NCBI GenBank assembly: GCA_964342185.1
Contig: CAYFER010000002.1
Coordinates: 92,946-156,945 of the forward strand
Reading direction: 5' to 3'
Source: an uncultured Vicinamibacteraceae bacterium
GTDB lineage: Bacteria; Acidobacteriota; Vicinamibacteria; Vicinamibacterales; UBA8438
Length of the DNA stretch: 64,000 bases
Both the position numbers and the translations under genes were made by a program. The notes under the pieces are model-generated. The model saw only the letters and a program-made list of their open reading frames with translations, was not told where the DNA came from and made no database searches. The first letter of the stretch is position 1. The number at the start of each line of letters is the position of its first letter. Of the stretch, positions 11,843 to 16,110 are shown one piece after another.

Positions 11843-13003
11843 ATGGTCATGAAACGCGTTAGGGTGGGCATCATCTACGGGGGGCGGTCCAATGAACACG
11901 AAGTGTCATTGGCATCAGCTGCCGCAGTAATCAGCAATCTTGATCCGGACCAGTATGAAATTTTTCCTATTTATATCCATCCTGATGGTCGCTGGTCACT
12001 CGCCAAACACCCACCCACAAGCAGTTCCGCGGCTCAAATTATTGATCAATCTAAGTCTCGCCCAGCCAGTGCTTCAATAAAACTCAAACAAACTCTACAA
12101 CTAGTATCACACCCGAGCGACAAAACACTCATAGCGATAGAACAACAAAATGACAACCCGCTATCTGAAATTGTTGACAGTTTAACCCTTGATGTTTTGT
12201 TTCCCGTTTTACACGGCAAACATGGAGAGGACGGAACATTGCAAGGATTGCTTGAACTAGCAAACTTGCCGTACGTTGGAGCTGGTGTTTTTTCATCTGC
12301 CGCGGCCATGGACAAAACTGCAGCCAAGGTCTTGTTTAAAGGATCTGGACTCCCTGTTGTTGATTATTGTGTCGTTTCAAAAAAAGACTGGGACTTGAGA
12401 CGCTCGACGACACTCGCCTCACTTGTCCAGCAGTTGAATTTTCCGATGTTCGTTAAACCTGCAAATCTAGGATCCAGTATCGGAATTAGCAAGGCCACTC
12501 AAATGGACGAACTGGAAACGTCTATTGATTTGGCACGTATGTTCGACCATAAGGTTCTTGTGGAAGTGGCGGTCCCCGAAGCCCGTGAACTTGAATGCGC
12601 CGTCTTGGGCAACGACGAGCCAGTCGTGTCACTACCGGGGGAAATTGTGTCCACTGGTCAATTTTACGATTACGCTGCCAAGTATCTTGACGCCGACTCC
12701 AAACTGATCATCCCCGCGTCGTTAACGGAAGAACAAACTAGTCGAATCAAGAAACTGGCCATCACTGCATTTCAAGCCATTGATTGCGCTGGTATGGCAC
12801 GAGTTGATTTTCTGATGGACGGAACTAATGGCCAACTGTTCCTCAACGAGATCAATACGATTCCTGGTTTCACGACAATCAGTATGTACCCGAAACTGTG
12901 GGAAGCTTCTGGCCTAAGTTATTCATCGCTCTTGGATCAACTAATTGAACTTGCTTTCGACCGACATGCGAGTAAGCAATCACTCAAGACAAGCCAAGAC
13001 TAG
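11843..13003 (+). CDS. ddl: D-alanine--D-alanine ligase
   Basis: GIIYGGRSNEHEVSLASA N-terminus, an ATP-grasp core, and a C-terminal LNEINTIPGFT motif. Confidence 0.92.
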   Translation: MVMKRVRVGIIYGGRSNEHEVSLASAAAVISNLDPDQYEIFPIYIHPDGRWSLAKHPPTSSSAAQIIDQSKSRPASASIKLKQTLQLVSHPSDKTLIAIEQQNDNPLSEIVDSLTLDVLFPVLHGKHGEDGTLQGLLELANLPYVGAGVFSSAAAMDKTAAKVLFKGSGLPVVDYCVVSKKDWDLRRSTTLASLVQQLNFPMFVKPANLGSSIGISKATQMDELETSIDLARMFDHKVLVEVAVPEARELECAVLGNDEPVVSLPGEIVSTGQFYDYAAKYLDADSKLIIPASLTEEQTSRIKKLAITAFQAIDCAGMARVDFLMDGTNGQLFLNEINTIPGFTTISMYPKLWEASGLSYSSLLDQLIELAFDRHASKQSLKTSQD

Positions 13004-13183
13004 TGCCACCGGCCGTATCAATCGAATGATTCACGTTAAATAAGTAAGACTCACTGAGACCTTACCCGTAATCAAGAATTTAACCGGATGTGTTTCGATC
13101 AAAAATACACAGTTTTGCGCCCGTGTATCGATTCATTCGCATAACTTGCTTACAAACTTTTTGACTTTTCATTTATTTTGTGC

Positions 13184-13213
13184 TTGACACGCTTATCTTC
13201 TCATCCGTAATCT
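13184..13213 (+). promoter_or_regulatory. Candidate sigma70-type promoter for the first lysine-rich micro-gene
   Basis: TTGACA (13184-13189), 18-nt spacer, TAATCT (13208-13213), within an AT-rich region about 105 nt upstream of the ATG at 13317. Confidence 0.4.
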
Positions 13214-13316
13214 ACATCTAGTATGAGGGTGGACGGCTCAGCCCACCTATTGTTGTAACACCTAGATGAGCGCAGGATGGGAACCTAGCTGAGCAGCCAC
13301 ATTCCAAGGAGGAAGA

Positions 13317-13454
13317 ATGGCGAAGAAGAAGGCAGCGAAGAAAAAGGCCGCGAAGAAAAAGGCCACGAAGAAAAAGGTAGCCAAGAAAAAGGCCACCAAG
13401 AAAAAGGCCACGAAGAAAAAGGCCGCAAAGAAAAAGGGCGCTAAAAAACGCTAA
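13317..13454 (+). CDS. Small polycationic protein (45 aa) made of nine xAKKK pentapeptide repeats; histone H1-like / nucleoid-associated type
   Basis: ATG at 13317 is preceded by the SD AAGGAGG (13306-13312). Translation is MAKKKAAKKKAAKKKATKKKVAKKKATKKKATKKKAAKKKGAKKR, with TAA at 13452-13454. An intrinsic terminator follows on the same strand. The gene is below the ORF-track size cut-off. Confidence 0.75.
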   Translation: MAKKKAAKKKAAKKKATKKKVAKKKATKKKATKKKAAKKKGAKKR

Positions 13455-13474
13455 ATCGAACCTGCCAATGGTTC

Positions 13475-13513
13475 CCGGGATGGACACCGTCGTGTGGACA
13501 TCCCGTTTTTTTT
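13475..13513 (+). terminator. Intrinsic terminator of the first micro-gene
   Basis: Imperfect hairpin cgggatg...catcccg followed by T8 (13506-13513). Confidence 0.7.
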
Positions 13514-13659
13514 GTCTTTCCGGGTTGTGACCCGGAAAACGCTGTCGCTAGGGTCAGGTTCTCTTACGCAGACTATCGCATTGGCCTGCGTTCGTCAGAA
13601 TCTTGGTTCCCCTAATTTAGGTGGCAGCTAGCTCAACACGAAGGGGGGGAGAACCCAAA

Positions 13660-13782
13660 ATGGCAAAGAAAAAGGCCGCGAAGAAAAAGGCCGCGAAGAA
13701 AAAGGTAGCCAAGAAAAAGGCCACCAAGAAAAAAGCCACGAAGAAAAAGGTAGCCAAGAAAAAGGGCGCCAAAAAGCGCTAG
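13660..13782 (+). CDS. Small polycationic protein (40 aa), paralog of 13317..13454 with eight xAKKK repeats
   Basis: ATG at 13660 is preceded by a purine-rich AAGGGGGGGAGAA. Translation is MAKKKAAKKKAAKKKVAKKKATKKKATKKKVAKKKGAKKR, with TAG at 13780-13782. A hairpin plus a G9-TAA-C7-T5 terminator lie immediately downstream. Confidence 0.72.
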   Translation: MAKKKAAKKKAAKKKVAKKKATKKKATKKKVAKKKGAKKR

Positions 13783-13801
13783 ATTCGGTCTTCGAATCGA
13801 A

Positions 13802-13825
13802 GGGGGGGGGTAACCCCCCCTTTTT
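13802..13825 (+). terminator. Intrinsic terminator of the second micro-gene
   Basis: G9 (13802-13810) / C7 (13814-20) stem with a TAA loop, followed by TTTTT. Confidence 0.7.
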
Positions 13826-13878
13826 CTTGTTGGGTTCCAAAAAACGAAGCCATTGGGCAGGGTCGATAATGGTTGTGC

Positions 13879-16110
13879 CTACAAAGGAGACACACCGTCC
13901 CAAACTAAAACCCTTCTGATCACATCACCCGGCCTGAGTTGATCAACAACATCCATACCGTCTACAACACGCGCAAAAGCCGTGTAACGTCCATCAAGAT
14001 CTGGCTGCGGCGAATGCGTTATAAAAAACTGACTGCCTCCAGTGTCCTGCCAATCGCGTGCAATACCTACGGTCCCTCTTAAATATGGAAGCTGGTTAAG
14101 CTCGTCCCTTAATGTGTAACCAGGTCCACCCTCACTGTCCGCCCTTGGGTCACCCCCTTGTACGACATAATTTGGAACAACCCGATGGAATGACAGACCG
14201 TCGTAAAACCCAAGACGTGCCAGAGTCATGAAGTTGTCGCAGGTCAAAGGCGCATCGATTACATTCAGTTCCATTTCAATTGTGCCATAGTCAGTCTCGA
14301 CGTAGACGTGTGGAGAAACGGTCGGTCTTACCAAAGCTGGCGCTTCAAAATTAACACTTCTCCTGCCGGGAGCCGGACGAATTGACCCGCTGTGCGTGAC
14401 ACCAGGTATCAGAGTATCCAAGCCCTCCGCTGCCCTAATCCGAGTTGCCCAATCGGGATCACTTAACGCTTCGGTTAGTATCCTCTGCGCCGTCGGACCA
14501 CCAATTGTCGCAAGAACGTCAAGGATAGCCGAGCGGGCCAGATAACTGGGCTCGTCTCGCGAAATCTCGAATGCTTGAACCAGTGCCGACACCATCTCAA
14601 CATCACTCAAGCTAGAAGCGCCTTTATTTCTATTTGCACCTAAAAGATTAGCGGCTGTCTTACGGATAACCACGTCTTCATGTTTAAGATGATCCAGTAA
14701 AATCCTTTCAACATCCGGTAATTGCTGTTTAAACATCGACTGCAGAACATATGGAATCACCCGTGTGTCCTCATCCTTTAGTAGCAGTTCCAACTGGTGA
14801 GTCGCCGCCTCAACGTCTGTAAACGCCAACCCTTCAGCTAAGGCCACGCGAACACGCCAATTCGAGTCTCGGCCAAGCCCTGATAACACCAGCATAAAAG
14901 TGTCTGGGTCTGTTCTAGCCAAGGCCTTGAGCGCCGCTGCCCGCATCGGCGGCCATGGGTCCGTCATTAACTCAATGAACACGTCGGTTGCTCCGGCCGA
15001 ATGGTGATACTGAAGAGCTACAAGTGTGGCCAGTCGTAAAGTCGGCGACAAGTCCAAATCGATTGCAAACTCTCGGAGTTCCTTCCCAATACGTGGGTCC
15101 TCCAGCTTGGATAGTGCTTGAATGGCAGTTGCGATAACCTTTTCGTCACGGCGGTTCAAATCCAAGAGGGCCAGCAATGCATCGGCAGCAGCGGTTGAGT
15201 TGGCATGACCGACCTTCCCTAAGCCTTCCGCCGCAAAAGCTACACCAACACTTCCTTGAACACCGGCCAAAGTCACAAGAGCCTCAAGCGCCCTCGGATC
15301 GCCGGTGCTTTGTAAGGCATACGCAACCGGCCACCACCACAAAATTGGCTGGCCATTTGGCTGCAGTACGGCCTCGGCCAAAGATTCATACGCTCCGAGG
15401 GTCCCTAATGCATATAGTGCAAGTCGAAAGGCTTCTACCTCTGCGGATAAAGGATATGAAAGGTCATCCGGGTCTAGATCATACGCAGTAGTAATATGAG
15501 AACTAATAAGGCGGCCAATAGCTGGTCCAGCATCAGTAGCACCGATTCGGCCCAACGCTTCGGCCGCCCGACCCTGAACAATCGGTTCAAAATCTTCGAG
15601 GGCCTCTAGAAGGGCTGAGGTGGCCTGAATATCCCCAATCAGGCCCAACGCAAATGCGGACATTTGTCTGACTTCAACCTGAGGGTCTTTCAGCGAAGAA
15701 ATCAGTGGCTTAACCGCCTCTTGAAGACCAAGTCGACCCAAGGCGAGTGCCGCTCTTCGTCTAATTTGAGGCTCACTATCTGACAGCAACAATACCAAGT
15801 CCGGTTCCATTGGAACGCCTTGCACTACCGCCTCAAGACTCTCCATCGCATCGTCTGAACTGGTTAAATCTGATGTATCTCTAATTAACCGTTGATCTTC
15901 GAGCCGAAGGATCCAACTAATTTTTTCGTCAAACGTAGGCAGTGTGGGAACAACTACAGTTGGGGTACGAGCGCAGCCGATAGCAGTGCCAATTCCGCAG
16001 AAGGAAACAAGAAGCACAAACAGCTGCAACTTCCGATCTTCACGTGATGGTAACGTCCGAAAATCAAACATGCGGGCGGCGGGCATCATAGCATGCAAAG
16101 TTCTCTGCAT
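13879..16110 (-). CDS. HEAT-repeat protein fused to a C-terminal cyclophilin-type peptidyl-prolyl cis-trans isomerase (probable lipoprotein)
   Basis: N-terminal signal/lipobox (FCGIGTAIGC). There are many HEAT/PBS-lyase-like repeats (RRRAALALGRLG, VRQMSAFALGLIG, RAAEALGRIG ...). The C-terminal roughly 165 aa is a clear cyclophilin (FHRVVPNYVVQGGDP ... GGSQFFIT). The start could be 16089 or 16071. Confidence 0.85.
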   Translation of the reverse strand: MQRTLHAMMPAARMFDFRTLPSREDRKLQLFVLLVSFCGIGTAIGCARTPTVVVPTLPTFDEKISWILRLEDQRLIRDTSDLTSSDDAMESLEAVVQGVPMEPDLVLLLSDSEPQIRRRAALALGRLGLQEAVKPLISSLKDPQVEVRQMSAFALGLIGDIQATSALLEALEDFEPIVQGRAAEALGRIGATDAGPAIGRLISSHITTAYDLDPDDLSYPLSAEVEAFRLALYALGTLGAYESLAEAVLQPNGQPILWWWPVAYALQSTGDPRALEALVTLAGVQGSVGVAFAAEGLGKVGHANSTAAADALLALLDLNRRDEKVIATAIQALSKLEDPRIGKELREFAIDLDLSPTLRLATLVALQYHHSAGATDVFIELMTDPWPPMRAAALKALARTDPDTFMLVLSGLGRDSNWRVRVALAEGLAFTDVEAATHQLELLLKDEDTRVIPYVLQSMFKQQLPDVERILLDHLKHEDVVIRKTAANLLGANRNKGASSLSDVEMVSALVQAFEISRDEPSYLARSAILDVLATIGGPTAQRILTEALSDPDWATRIRAAEGLDTLIPGVTHSGSIRPAPGRRSVNFEAPALVRPTVSPHVYVETDYGTIEMELNVIDAPLTCDNFMTLARLGFYDGLSFHRVVPNYVVQGGDPRADSEGGPGYTLRDELNQLPYLRGTVGIARDWQDTGGSQFFITHSPQPDLDGRYTAFARVVDGMDVVDQLRPGDVIRRVLVWDGVSPL

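What the first reader, a model, noticed from the sequence alone, without database searches (positions are those of the whole stretch)
13184..13825. Two tandem micro-genes, missing from the ORF track, encoding pure (A/T/V)AKKK pentapeptide-repeat polycations
On the plus strand, 13317-13454 (45 aa) and 13660-13782 (40 aa) translate to M-AKKK-(xAKKK)n-GAKKR, which is about 60% Lys/Arg. Each gene has its own purine-rich SD, and each has its own hairpin plus T-tract terminator on the plus strand. A good TTGACA-18-TAATCT promoter precedes the first gene. The ORF track reports only the antisense shadows (LFLRGLFL... at 13218..13487 and 13628..13903). The composition resembles eukaryotic linker-histone C-terminal tails, chlamydial Hc1/Hc2 and AlgP-type KPAA repeats. 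That suggests abundant nucleoid- or RNA/ribosome-condensing proteins. Two independently terminated paralogs in tandem, each with a roughly 100-150 nt leader, is an unusual arrangement and is easily missed by annotation pipelines.
Basis: partly seen in the sequence, partly recalled or inferred. Interest (0 to 1): 0.6.

Follow-up and report, generated by a model that had tools for sequence, protein, structure and literature searches.

The report
Tandem poly-lysine micro-protein genes
Two tiny neighbouring genes in a marine Acidobacteria-like genome encode 45- and 40-residue chains made almost entirely of Ala-Lys-Lys-Lys repeats. They are real, conserved genes with an unusually conserved upstream RNA leader, and most likely act as protamine-like coats for DNA, RNA or polyphosphate, a class that standard homology tools cannot see.

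Summary
On the plus strand, 13317-13454 (45 aa) and 13660-13782 (40 aa) encode M-AKKK-(xAKKK)n-GAKKR, 60% Lys/Arg, about +27 and +24 charge. Each has a Shine-Dalgarno site, a small hairpin after the stop codon, and a GC hairpin followed by a T-run.

Comparative data support plus-strand coding:
- 25 distinct orthologue or paralogue sequences from about 12 syntenic marine lineages lie between ddl and a HEAT-cyclophilin gene. One is labelled Vicinamibacterales.
- All keep the ATG, the SD site, the MAKK start and a basic (G/S)A(K/R)KR end.
- Indels of 15, 12 and 3 nt are all in frame.
- Among close relatives, 9 of 10 (K1) and 12 of 16 (K2) variable sites fall at third codon positions.

The unexpected result is that the K1 promoter and its roughly 100-nt leader are 86-90% identical where the neighbouring genes are 67-72% identical. 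This leader matches no Rfam family.

Stand-alone poly-AKKK micro-ORFs with SD sites and terminators are also common in other metagenomes and in phage contigs.

Function was not tested. The best reading is non-specific polyanion-binding polycations resembling the histone H1 tail, Hc2 or AlgP, with leader-controlled translation. They are not members of those families by profile. I rate this a new variant of a known kind, of moderate-to-high interest.

The parts
13150..13183 (+). Conserved A/T-rich stretch upstream of the promoter (AAACTTTTTGACTTTTC.TTTATTTTGTGC). Possibly a UP-element-like region.
   Evidence: Nearly invariant in relatives whose other intergenic DNA cannot be aligned. Variable-site density over 13150-13214 is 0.03, against 0.17-0.33 in the flanks.
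13184..13213 (+). Predicted sigma-70-type promoter of K1: -35 TTGACA (13184-13189), 18-nt spacer, -10 TAATCT (13208-13213).
   Evidence: Read directly. Kept in all 11 distinct leaders, with one base changed in the L179 -10 (TAATCG). Not flagged by the consensus scan because the -10 matches only 3 of 6 positions. The transcription start was not mapped.
13215..13316 (+). K1 leader (5' UTR, about 97-102 nt), highly conserved. Candidate elements: hairpin 13227-13232/13243-13248; helix GCUCAGC 13236-13242 with GCUGAGC 13288-13294; SD/AUG hairpin 13296-13321.
   Evidence: Promoter plus leader is 86-90% nt identical to loci whose ddl and PPIase genes are 67-72% identical. One variable site in 102 among close relatives. 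Covariance model R1 hits only this position and L179. No Rfam match. The structure is compatible (97.8% of cells paired) but has only one compensatory change.
13223..13258 (+). Possible leaderless-type upstream ORF inside the leader (MRVDGSAHLLL*).
   Evidence: 10-11 codons in 8 of 9 lineages and 20 codons in L219. The window has an in-frame 3-nt insertion and a TGA-to-TAA change. The peptide sequence is not conserved. Weak evidence.
13306..13312 (+). Shine-Dalgarno site of K1 (AAGGAGG), 4 nt before the ATG.
   Evidence: Read directly. Kept in all 11 leaders; one (L224) reads GAGGAGG.
13317..13454 (+). K1 coding sequence: 45 aa, M-AKKK-(xAKKK)7-GAKKR, charge +27.
   Evidence: The exact protein is called on 24 or more public contigs. 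9 of 10 variable sites are at third positions and synonymous. Orthologues of 22-45 aa keep the start, the end and the frame.
13458..13513 (+). K1 3' end: hairpin after the stop codon (13458-13474), then an intrinsic terminator hairpin (13476-13505) and T8 (13506-13513).
   Evidence: Fold of -23.9 kcal/mol, z = -3.0. Variable-site density 0.036 among close relatives.
13514..13659 (+). K2 leader and inter-gene spacer. Contains the hairpin at 13516-13539 and the SD site GGGGGGGAG (13643-13651). No recognisable promoter.
   Evidence: The last roughly 30 nt (CTCAACACGAAGGGGGGGAGAACCC.AAATG) are conserved in L224 and partly in L179. Variable-site density 0.067.
13660..13782 (+). K2 coding sequence: 40 aa, same repeat architecture, charge +24.
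   Evidence: Relatives have K2 of 23, 34, 40, 45 or 54 aa. 12 of 16 variable sites are at third positions.
13782..13829 (.). K2 3' end: hairpin after the stop codon (13782-13798), then an A-tract, G9/C7 hairpin and T-tract terminator (13799-13829). Probably bidirectional and shared with the convergent HEAT-cyclophilin gene.
   Evidence: Scanner hit. Fold of -28.1 kcal/mol, z = -3.4. The same two-hairpin layout, with different first-hairpin sequences, appears in 6 of the 7 relative 3' ends folded (all but L224 K2), z from -2.8 to -7.1.

Best explanation
K1 and K2 are genuine, translated plus-strand micro-genes. They encode intrinsically disordered polycations of 45 and 40 aa, 60% Lys/Arg, with no globular domain.

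Most likely role: bulk, sequence-non-specific counter-ions and condensers of cellular polyanions (DNA, RNA or ribosomes, or polyphosphate). This would work the way the histone H1 C-terminal tail, chlamydial Hc2 and Pseudomonas AlgP work.

Proposed expression:
- K1 is transcribed from a strong, conserved TTGACA-18-TAATCT promoter.
- Its translation is governed by a conserved leader of about 100 nt. The 3' end of the leader folds the SD site and AUG into a hairpin (GCCA..UUCC-AAGGA-GGAA..UGGC).
- The adjoining GCUGAGC pairs with GCUCAGC further upstream.
- I infer that this leader sets the dosage of a potentially toxic polycation. It may do so through feedback by the peptide itself, by sensing the cation/polyanion state, or through translation of a 10-codon upstream ORF that covers one strand of the helix.

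K2 is a paralogue made by tandem duplication. Recombination between the 15-nt repeats changes the repeat number and collapses the pair back to one gene.

Shown: gene reality, strand, frame, conservation, repeat dynamics and leader conservation.

Inferred: the binding partners, abundance, the leader mechanism and how K2 is transcribed.
For: Coding on the plus strand:
- An ATG with an SD site 4-8 nt upstream, and terminators in the plus orientation.
- The exact proteins are called in public assemblies.
- 25 distinct nucleotide versions of 22-54 aa all start MAKK and end (G/S)A(K/R)KR, with K+R between 0.56 and 0.65.
- Indels of 15, 12 and 3 nt are always in frame. Examples: L219 vs L220 (+3 nt), L179 K2 with AKKK 4-mers, and L228 MAKKKAKKTAKRKAAKKGAKKR, where the DNA repeat has decayed but the basic character is kept.
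- Synonymous to non-synonymous changes are 9:1 in K1 and 10:4 in K2.

Vertical, core-like gene: it sits in the same slot between ddl and the HEAT-cyclophilin gene in lineages down to 54% PPIase identity, including a MAG labelled Vicinamibacterales.

Bulk-charge function rather than a precise fit: L221, L222 and L223 have identical flanks but encode 40, 45 and 35 aa, and K2 is 40, 45 or 54 aa in close relatives.

Regulatory leader:
- Promoter plus leader is 86-90% identical against 67-72% for neighbouring coding sequences.
- Variable-site density is 0.01 in the leader against 0.17-0.33 in the flanks.
- The SD/AUG hairpin is predicted in every lineage.
- The long-range helix is 97% paired, with one C-G to U-A compensation.

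The class is real. Of 48 distinct stand-alone poly-AKKK ORFs from other metagenomes, 37 have an SD site (control 16/240) and 28 have a terminator-like site (control 14/240).

Precedents:
- Hc2 varies from 165 to 237 aa through its number of lysine-rich pentamers (PMC2848022).
- The translation of Hc1 is tightly repressed by an sRNA (PMC3469542).
- AlgP is an H1-like protein that acts on polyphosphate granules (PMC9239181).
Against: - There are no expression, proteomic or binding data of any kind. The function rests on composition alone.
- Third-position variation is also largely silent in one antisense frame (AFFF...), so the substitution pattern alone does not fix the strand. Seven of the 9 third-position changes in K1 would be silent there too (my own reading).
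- Support for the leader structure is weak. Minimum-free-energy z-scores are only -0.1 to -1.6. There is one compensatory pair, and 51 of 500 shuffles do as well.
- One related lineage (L229) lacks the gene at this position altogether, so it may be dispensable or located elsewhere.
- No promoter was found for K2.
Confidence: 0.5

Rival explanations
1. The peptides are lineage-specific ribosomal or ribosome-associated small basic proteins, comparable to bTHX, bS22, bL37 or eL41. The conserved leader would be the autoregulatory binding site, as in ribosomal-protein operons.
For: The size, charge and strong conserved promoter fit. A highly conserved structured leader ahead of a small basic protein is typical of autoregulated ribosomal-protein genes. 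In other lineages, some poly-K micro-ORFs lie next to nadD-like genes.
Against: No NCBIfam or Pfam ribosomal family matches, even at E up to 10, and there is no PDB match. The leader shows no mimicry of E. coli 16S, 23S or 5S rRNA beyond chance: the longest shared word is 8 nt, while shuffles give 8-13. Rapid repeat-number polymorphism among near-identical strains (35, 40 or 45 aa) and loss in L229 argue against a precisely fitted ribosome component.
Confidence: 0.15
2. The polycations are toxic or antimicrobial effectors. One version is a type-I-toxin-like module held silent by its SD-sequestering leader and an antisense RNA. Another is an exported cationic peptide.
For: A long leader that occludes the SD site and AUG is typical of type I toxin mRNAs. 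Tandem copies are common for such loci. Polycationic peptides are generally toxic. Phage contigs also carry 17-23 aa versions.
Against: The gene holds a fixed chromosomal slot between core genes across deep divergence, which points to vertical inheritance and is unlike mobile toxin-antitoxin loci. There is no hydrophobic segment, signal peptide or neighbouring transporter. No conserved antisense promoter was found. The promoter looks strong and constitutive.
Confidence: 0.07
3. The ORFs are regulatory rather than productive. Lys-codon-rich leader peptides would sense Lys-tRNA supply or ribosome stalling and control transcription read-through, as in attenuation.
For: 26 and 23 Lys codons lie directly upstream of hairpin-plus-T terminators. 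AAA-AAG runs are known to be slippery or slow to translate (established knowledge from dnaX-type sites).
Against: Nothing lies downstream to regulate. K2 is followed by a convergent gene, and single-gene lineages end at a bidirectional terminator. The conserved basic C-terminal motif, (G/S)A(K/R)KR, and the maintained charge in L228 despite repeat decay indicate selection on the product.
Confidence: 0.05
4. The region does not code on the plus strand. It would be either a non-coding 15-nt tandem repeat, or one of the antisense ORFs (LFLRGLFL... or AFFF...) would be the real gene.
For: One antisense frame is always open. Most third-position changes are also silent in the AFFF antisense frame (my reading).
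Against: The antisense openness follows from the composition. The antisense ORFs have no conserved start and run into the leader, whose length differs between lineages by amounts that are not multiples of three (102, 99, 98, 92, 91 nt). The promoter, SD sites, ATG, stop codons and terminators are all oriented for the plus strand and are conserved. Indels of 3 and 12 nt preserve the plus frame.
Confidence: 0.03

Closest known systems
Chlamydial histone H1-like protein Hc2 (HctB; Pfam PF07382)
   Same: Both are built from Lys/Ala-rich pentamer repeats. In both, the repeat number varies between strains (PMC2848022). Both are polycations expected to bind nucleic acid non-specifically. The related Hc1 is under tight post-transcriptional control (PMC3469542).
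   Different: Hc2 is 165-237 aa with a mosaic repeat structure, and it is a developmental late protein. K1 and K2 are 22-54 aa and contain only repeats. The profile match is far below threshold (7.3 and 9.3 bits against 40). They come from a different phylum, and they carry a conserved cis leader rather than a known trans-acting sRNA.
AlgP / AlgR3 and the Burkholderiales H1-like proteins (NCBIfam NF038053, e.g. BpH1)
   Same: Both are Lys/Ala-rich, low-complexity bacterial polycations. AlgP acts on polyphosphate granules (PMC9239181), which gives a non-DNA polyanion target.
   Different: Those proteins are about 200-350 aa, use KPAA/AAKP-type repeats containing proline, and have extra N-terminal regions. 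There is no proline here. The profile score is 8.7 bits against a cut-off of 80.
C-terminal domain of eukaryotic linker histone H1, and protamine-like sperm nuclear basic proteins
   Same: The composition is similar (Lys, Ala, Thr, Val), as are the disorder and the charge density. Function in these proteins depends on bulk charge more than on exact sequence.
   Different: There is no winged-helix globular domain, no S/TPKK motifs, a strictly pentameric repeat, a bacterial origin and a 4-5 kDa size. The similarity is almost certainly convergent.
Lys-rich C-terminal tails of actinobacterial HU (HupB/MDP1, HupS) and PHA-granule proteins such as PhaF
   Same: AKKA/PAKKA-type repeats that add non-specific DNA affinity (established knowledge).
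   Different: Those are tails fused to a folded domain. Here the tail is the entire protein.
Very small basic ribosomal proteins (bTHX, bS22, bL37, eL41)
   Same: Similar size (20-45 aa) and very high pI. Genes of this kind are easily missed in annotation.
   Different: Those proteins are not repeats, have fixed lengths and have defined rRNA pockets. No profile match was found, and the length here is polymorphic.

Membership tests
Pfam PF07382 HC2 (histone H1-like nucleoprotein Hc2) | Profile match at or above the gathering score (40 bits) | tested here: not met
   7.3 bits (E = 6.3) and 9.3 bits (E = 1.5)
Pfam PF07382 HC2 (histone H1-like nucleoprotein Hc2) | Lys-rich pentamer repeats whose number varies between strains | tested here: met
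   xAKKK units with indels in 15-nt steps. K1 is 35, 40 or 45 aa with identical flanks, and K2 is 40, 45 or 54 aa. Compare PMC2848022.
Pfam PF07382 HC2 (histone H1-like nucleoprotein Hc2) | DNA/RNA binding and nucleoid condensation | not testable with these tools
   Requires gel-shift assays or expression experiments.
NCBIfam NF038053 hist_H1_lk_Burk (Burkholderiales H1-like DNA-binding protein) | Profile match at or above the curated cut-off (80 bits) | tested here: not met
   8.7 and 8.6 bits, E about 2
AlgP-type KPAA-repeat proteins | Pro-containing KPAA/AAKP tetrapeptide repeats in a protein of about 35 kDa | tested here: not met
   No proline is present. The unit is a pentamer and the products are 4.4-4.95 kDa.
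Eukaryotic linker histone H1 | Central winged-helix globular domain flanked by basic tails | tested here: not met
   The whole 40-45 aa consists of repeats. There is no Pfam linker-histone hit.
Small bacterial ribosomal proteins (bS22, bL37, bTHX) | Match to the NCBIfam or Pfam family model, or to a solved ribosome chain | tested here: not met
   No such family at E up to 10. No PDB chain at E up to 10.
Small bacterial ribosomal proteins (bS22, bL37, bTHX) | Physical presence in purified ribosomes | not testable with these tools
   Requires ribosome purification with mass spectrometry or cryo-EM.
Autoregulated ribosomal-protein leader (rRNA mimic) | The leader resembles the protein's rRNA binding site | tested here: not met
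   The longest word shared with E. coli 16S, 23S or 5S rRNA is 8 nt. Shuffled leaders give 8-13 nt. Only E. coli rRNA was tested.
Known RNA families (Rfam 15) | Covariance-model match in the leaders | tested here: not met
   No hit in either leader at E up to 10. The only hits are weak matches to the terminator hairpins.
Amino-acid attenuator leader peptide | A regulated gene or genes downstream of the terminator | tested here: not met
   K2, and the single gene in other lineages, is followed by a convergent gene.
Type I toxin-antitoxin | A small hydrophobic or membrane toxin plus an overlapping antisense RNA | tested here: not met
   The peptide has no hydrophobic stretch. No antisense promoter was detected. 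The locus is syntenic and core-like. The absence of an antisense RNA was not tested experimentally.
Rho-independent terminator | A GC-rich hairpin immediately followed by a U-tract, downstream of the stop codon | tested here: met

The most novel reading that the evidence does not exclude
Stand-alone poly-(xAKKK) micro-proteins may be a widespread, unannotated class of 'bacterial protamines'. They would be abundant 2-7 kDa polycations that organise the nucleoid, RNA or polyphosphate in many bacterial lineages and some phages. In this Vicinamibacterales-like lineage, their dosage would be set by a new cis-regulatory RNA. That RNA is the invariant leader of about 100 nt, in which translation of a leaderless 10-codon upstream ORF, or binding of the polycation itself, toggles a long-range helix next to an SD/AUG-sequestering hairpin.
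Probability: 0.2. Interest if true: 0.8.

Novelty: new variant of a known kind. Interest (0 to 1): 0.55.

Why it matters
Bacterial chromatin research centres on folded nucleoid proteins such as HU, H-NS, Fis, Dps and, more recently, true histones. Lys/Ala-repeat polycations are known only as tails or as proteins of 15-35 kDa in a few pathogens.

This study finds a repeat-only version of 22-54 aa that:
- is conserved in a fixed genomic slot across a marine acidobacterial clade;
- has a promoter and leader more conserved than the neighbouring essential genes;
- has more than 100 unrelated stand-alone counterparts in soil, sediment, freshwater and phage contigs.

These proteins are invisible to HMM and BLAST tools because of composition filters, and to tryptic proteomics. 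An abundant cellular component could therefore have been missed systematically.

If the peptides are abundant, they would change estimates of the cellular counter-ion budget and of nucleoid and RNA condensation in uncultured bacteria. They would also supply a new regulatory leader RNA to study. The rapid, always in-frame change in repeat number offers a natural dosage and length series for testing charge-driven condensation.

Tried and rejected
- **Rfam:** a scan of 12500-14500 at E up to 10 returned only spurious hits on the terminator hairpins.
- **Profile and structure searches with the peptides:** Pfam, NCBIfam, PHROGs and PDB gave nothing significant.
- **Word-seeded phmmer against 5.8 billion proteins:** 293 candidates, none significant. 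I attribute this to composition correction. For the same reason I did not spend the 1.84-billion-protein HMMER job or a structure prediction on a pure repeat.
- **Genome-contig scan with Ddl:** it returned only relatives of 52% identity or less from many phyla.
- **Taxonomy:** it came indirectly, from one named homologue labelled Vicinamibacterales.
- **rRNA mimicry by the leader:** rejected.
- **Stem between CATCTAG (13215-13221) and CTAGATG (13262-13268):** it looked compensatory by eye. It probably lies upstream of the transcription start and is absent in L228, L230 and L179, so I dropped it.
- **My first register for the GGGUGG hairpin:** it was wrong and was corrected.
- **Covariance model of the leader:** searched against 99 other loci that carry poly-K ORFs. 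Only L179 hit, so the leader is lineage-specific and not a general poly-K leader.
- **Literature:** eight searches found no paper describing stand-alone AKKK micro-proteins.
- **Attenuator, type I toxin and antisense-gene readings:** considered and rejected. The reasons are given under the rival explanations.
Full report
**1. What is in the sequence**

The plus strand carries two small ORFs:
- K1, 13317-13454: MAKKKAAKKKAAKKKATKKKVAKKKATKKKATKKKAAKKKGAKKR, 45 aa.
- K2, 13660-13782: MAKKKAAKKKAAKKKVAKKKATKKKATKKKVAKKKGAKKR, 40 aa.

They are 60% Lys/Arg, with pI about 11.8, masses of 4950 and 4422 Da, and net charges of about +27 and +24. The DNA pattern for three consecutive AKKK-x units occurs only in these two genes in the 64-kb window. 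None is expected in shuffles.

Each ATG follows a purine-rich SD site: AAGGAGG at 13306-13312 and GGGGGGGAG at 13643-13651.

Each stop codon is followed by a small hairpin and then a GC-rich hairpin with a T-run:
- K1: 13458-13474, then 13476-13505 and T8. Fold energy is -23.9 kcal/mol, z = -3.0.
- K2: 13782-13798, then 13799-13824 and a T-tract. Fold energy is -28.1 kcal/mol, z = -3.4.

The K2 terminator has an A-tract on its 5' side and faces the convergent 743-aa HEAT-repeat/cyclophilin gene (13879-16110, minus strand). It probably terminates both genes.

The consensus scanner does not report it because the -10 matches TATAAT at only 3 of 6 positions. I found no promoter for K2.

**2. Which strand and frame**

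The 89- and 91-aa antisense ORFs are shadows. In all 25 distinct versions of these genes the codon-aligned antisense frame has no stops, because Lys, Ala, Thr, Val and Gly codons cannot yield an antisense stop codon.

Evidence for plus-strand coding:
- (a) The exact 45-aa and 40-aa products are called as genes on many public marine contigs from Tara, JGI and ENA, and on an NCBI MAG.
- (b) Among ten close relatives (90-100% nt identity), 9 of the 10 variable sites in K1 are third-codon positions and all 9 are synonymous. In K2, 12 of 16 are third positions, with 10 synonymous and 4 non-synonymous changes.
- (c) Across about 12 syntenic lineages the products are 22-54 aa. All start MAKK and end in a basic (G/S)A(K/R)KR motif: GAKKR in 24 of the 25, SARKR in L006 K2.
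- (d) Length differences of 15, 12 and 3 nt are all in frame. In L228 the DNA repeat has decayed (MAKKKAKKTAKRKAAKKGAKKR) but the charge is kept.
- (e) The leader through which the antisense ORF would run differs in length between lineages by amounts that are not multiples of three.

One caveat applies. AAA/AAG wobble changes are also silent in one antisense frame (AFFF...). The substitution pattern therefore supports the strand call but does not prove it. The oriented signals (promoter, SD site, ATG, stop codon, terminators) settle the question.

**3. Context and organism**

The gene order is bacA-secF-secD-yajC-tgt on the minus strand, then ddl, K1 and K2 on the plus strand. The convergent HEAT-cyclophilin gene follows, then dNK, accD, folC and lptD.

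Homologues of the HEAT-cyclophilin protein at 54-72% identity lie in the same arrangement on long marine contigs. NCBI labels one of them (L230, 54% identity) as a Vicinamibacterales MAG, and it carries a 45-aa K gene with the same leader. The best Ddl matches in GTDB genomes are Acidobacteriota and Chloroflexota at 52% identity or less. The window is therefore most likely from a marine Acidobacteriota lineage of the Vicinamibacteria type. This is an inference.

**4. The tandem pair is dynamic**

- L179 and L224 have K1 plus K2 (30 + 23 aa and 29 + 34 aa).
- L219-L223, L225-L228 and L230 have a single gene. It combines the K1-type promoter and leader with a 3' end of the K2 layout (a post-stop hairpin, then an A-tract, GC hairpin and T-tract terminator). 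In L219-L223 the first-hairpin sequence, ATTCGG..TCGAATCGAA, is also the same as that of K2.
- L229 has no gene in this slot; ddl and the PPIase gene are 18 nt apart.
- L221, L222 and L223 have identical flanks but encode 40, 45 and 35 aa.
- K2 is 40, 45 or 54 aa among close relatives.

Slippage or recombination among the 15-nt units therefore changes the repeat number quickly, and it can fuse or duplicate the genes. Selection acts on frame, ends and charge, not on exact length. That pattern fits a bulk-charge function better than a precisely fitted structural role.

**5. The leader**

This is the most unusual feature. From the A/T-rich region at 13150 through the promoter to the K1 ATG, the sequence is 86-90% identical to loci whose ddl and PPIase genes are only 67-72% identical at the nucleotide level. 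The rest of the intergenic DNA in those loci cannot be aligned.

Variable-site density among seven close relatives:

| Segment | Density |
|---|---|
| Flanks | 0.17-0.33 |
| Promoter | 0.03 |
| Leader 1 | 0.01 |
| K1 | 0.058 |
| K1 3' UTR | 0.036 |
| Leader 2 | 0.067 |
| K2 | 0.13 |

The leader matches no Rfam family. A covariance model built from 11 leaders finds it only here and in L179 among 100 sources, including 99 loci with other poly-K ORFs.

Candidate structure:
- a hairpin, GGGUGG/CCACCU;
- a 7-bp helix between GCUCAGC (13236-13242) and GCUGAGC (13288-13294), either long-range or a pseudoknot;
- an invariant hairpin enclosing the SD site and the start codon (GCCA..UUCC-AAGGA-GGAA..UGGC, 13296-13321).

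The model is compatible with all the sequences (97.8% of cells paired). It has only one compensatory change (C-G to U-A in L179), and 51 of 500 shuffles do as well. Single-sequence folding energies are unremarkable, with z from -0.1 to -1.6. The conservation is solid, but the structure is a hypothesis.

The leader shows no similarity to E. coli rRNA beyond chance.

**6. The 3' ends**

The arrangement of a post-stop hairpin followed by an A-tract, GC hairpin and U-tract recurs in 6 of the 7 relative 3' ends folded (all but L224 K2). The first hairpin differs in sequence among L225, L228, L230 and L179. This is structural conservation and points to a stable plus-strand mRNA 3' end.

**7. A wider class**

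- 103 of the 122 matches are complete ORFs of 80 aa or fewer.
- Among 48 distinct peptides, 37 have an SD motif (control 16/240) and 28 have a hairpin plus T-run within 150 nt downstream (control 14/240).
- The commonest is a 17-aa ORF, MAKKKAAKKK[T/S/A]AKKKRH, from many soil samples. It too has its own promoter-like site, a conserved leader of about 75 nt with hairpins, and a terminator.
- Six matches occur in viral contigs. Four are ORFs of 17-23 aa with strong SD sites.

These families have different leaders and contexts, so they may be convergent rather than homologous.

**8. Mechanism**

Shown: these are real, conserved, plus-strand micro-genes for repeat-only polycations, and K1 has a strongly constrained promoter and leader.

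Inferred: the products are abundant, non-specific polyanion binders acting on DNA, RNA or ribosomes, or polyphosphate. They would work like the H1 C-terminal tail, Hc2 or AlgP. Because such polycations are potentially toxic, their synthesis would be limited by the leader, whose 3' hairpin occludes the SD site and AUG. Possible inputs to that control are feedback by the peptide, the cellular cation or polyanion state, or translation of an upstream ORF.

Precedents:
- Hc2 varies in length through its number of Lys-rich pentamers (PMC2848022).
- Hc1 translation is repressed by an sRNA (PMC3469542).
- AlgP acts on polyphosphate granules (PMC9239181).

Rival explanations (ribosomal protein, toxin or antimicrobial peptide, attenuator peptide, non-coding or antisense) are listed with their evidence. 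None is excluded experimentally.

**9. Comparison with known families and novelty**

By profile the peptides belong to neither HC2 (7-9 bits against 40) nor the Burkholderiales H1-like family (8.7 bits against 80). They lack the proline of AlgP repeats and the globular domain of H1.

They work like those proteins in composition and repeat dynamics, but they are a distinct form: a micro-protein made only of repeats, with its own conserved leader RNA. Eight literature searches found no description of such stand-alone AKKK micro-proteins.

This is a new variant of a known kind. Interest is 0.55, because function and expression remain untested.

Noticed in passing
window 13223-13258: An upstream ORF lies inside the K1 leader, starting 9-10 nt after the -10 hexamer and so effectively leaderless. 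It encodes MRVDGSAHLLL in the window and is 10-11 codons in 8 of 9 lineages. L179 reads MRVERLGYWL, and L219 has lost the stop and runs to 20 codons. The window has an in-frame 3-nt insertion and a TGA-to-TAA change. The upstream ORF covers the GCUCAGC strand of the candidate helix.
   Followed up: partly
L113 5569-5622 (+), L132 4156-4209 (+) and about 50 other soil loci among L102-L214: A 17-aa ORF, MAKKKAAKKK[T/S/A]AKKKRH, is very common in soil metagenomes. It has an invariant upstream sequence (attgaaaggggggaattagtcg), a TTGACA-type promoter-like site, a conserved leader of about 75 nt with two hairpins, and a terminator. In L113 it lies between a coaBC-like and a suhB-like ORF.
   Followed up: partly
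L093, L094, L096, L097 (IMG/VR viral contigs): Phage contigs carry 17-23 aa poly-K ORFs with strong SD sites, for example MAKKKMAKKKTAKKKVAKKAY. L095 and L098 instead have the same motif as the N-terminal tail of larger proteins.
   Followed up: no
L151, L209, L143; L153, L137: In unrelated lineages, poly-K micro-ORFs sit next to a nadD-like gene (FGGTFDPIHxGH) three times and next to a parA/soj-like gene twice. The neighbours were identified only from their N-terminal motifs, not by profile search.
   Followed up: no
L012 (equals window 13288-13837): A 550-nt contig with k-mer coverage of 269 spans from 29 nt upstream of the K1 ATG to just past the K2 terminator. It may be transcript-derived, which would imply K1-K2 co-transcription, or it may be an assembly fragment bounded by repeats. 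The sample type is unknown.
   Followed up: no
L229 5639-5658: A relative with 57% PPIase identity has ddl and the PPIase gene only 18 nt apart, with no K gene in this slot. The gene has either been lost or moved elsewhere.
   Followed up: partly
L108, L205, L216: Some matches are long AKKK N-terminal tails fused to a C-terminal region (..KRKPSAAFMRPM..) that resembles a SWIB/MDM2-type domain. This would be a fused version of the same polycation. The domain assignment is from memory and was not tested.
   Followed up: no
window 13317-13454 and 13660-13782, other plus-strand frames: The two other plus-strand frames of the repeats are almost free of stop codons. As shown by the six-frame translation of the L230 orthologue, one encodes an Arg/Pro/Lys-rich polycation and the other a Glu/Gly-rich polyanion. 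The repeats contain many AAA-AAG junctions, a motif known from dnaX to be prone to frameshifting (established knowledge). Whether frameshift products are made is unknown.
   Followed up: no
window 13516-13539: A conserved hairpin, UUUCCGGGU-UGUG-ACCCGGAAA, lies directly after the K1 terminator T-run (-14.2 kcal/mol, z = -3.2). It is also present in L224. Its role is unknown; it could be a second terminator, a processing site or the 5' end of the K2 leader.
   Followed up: partly
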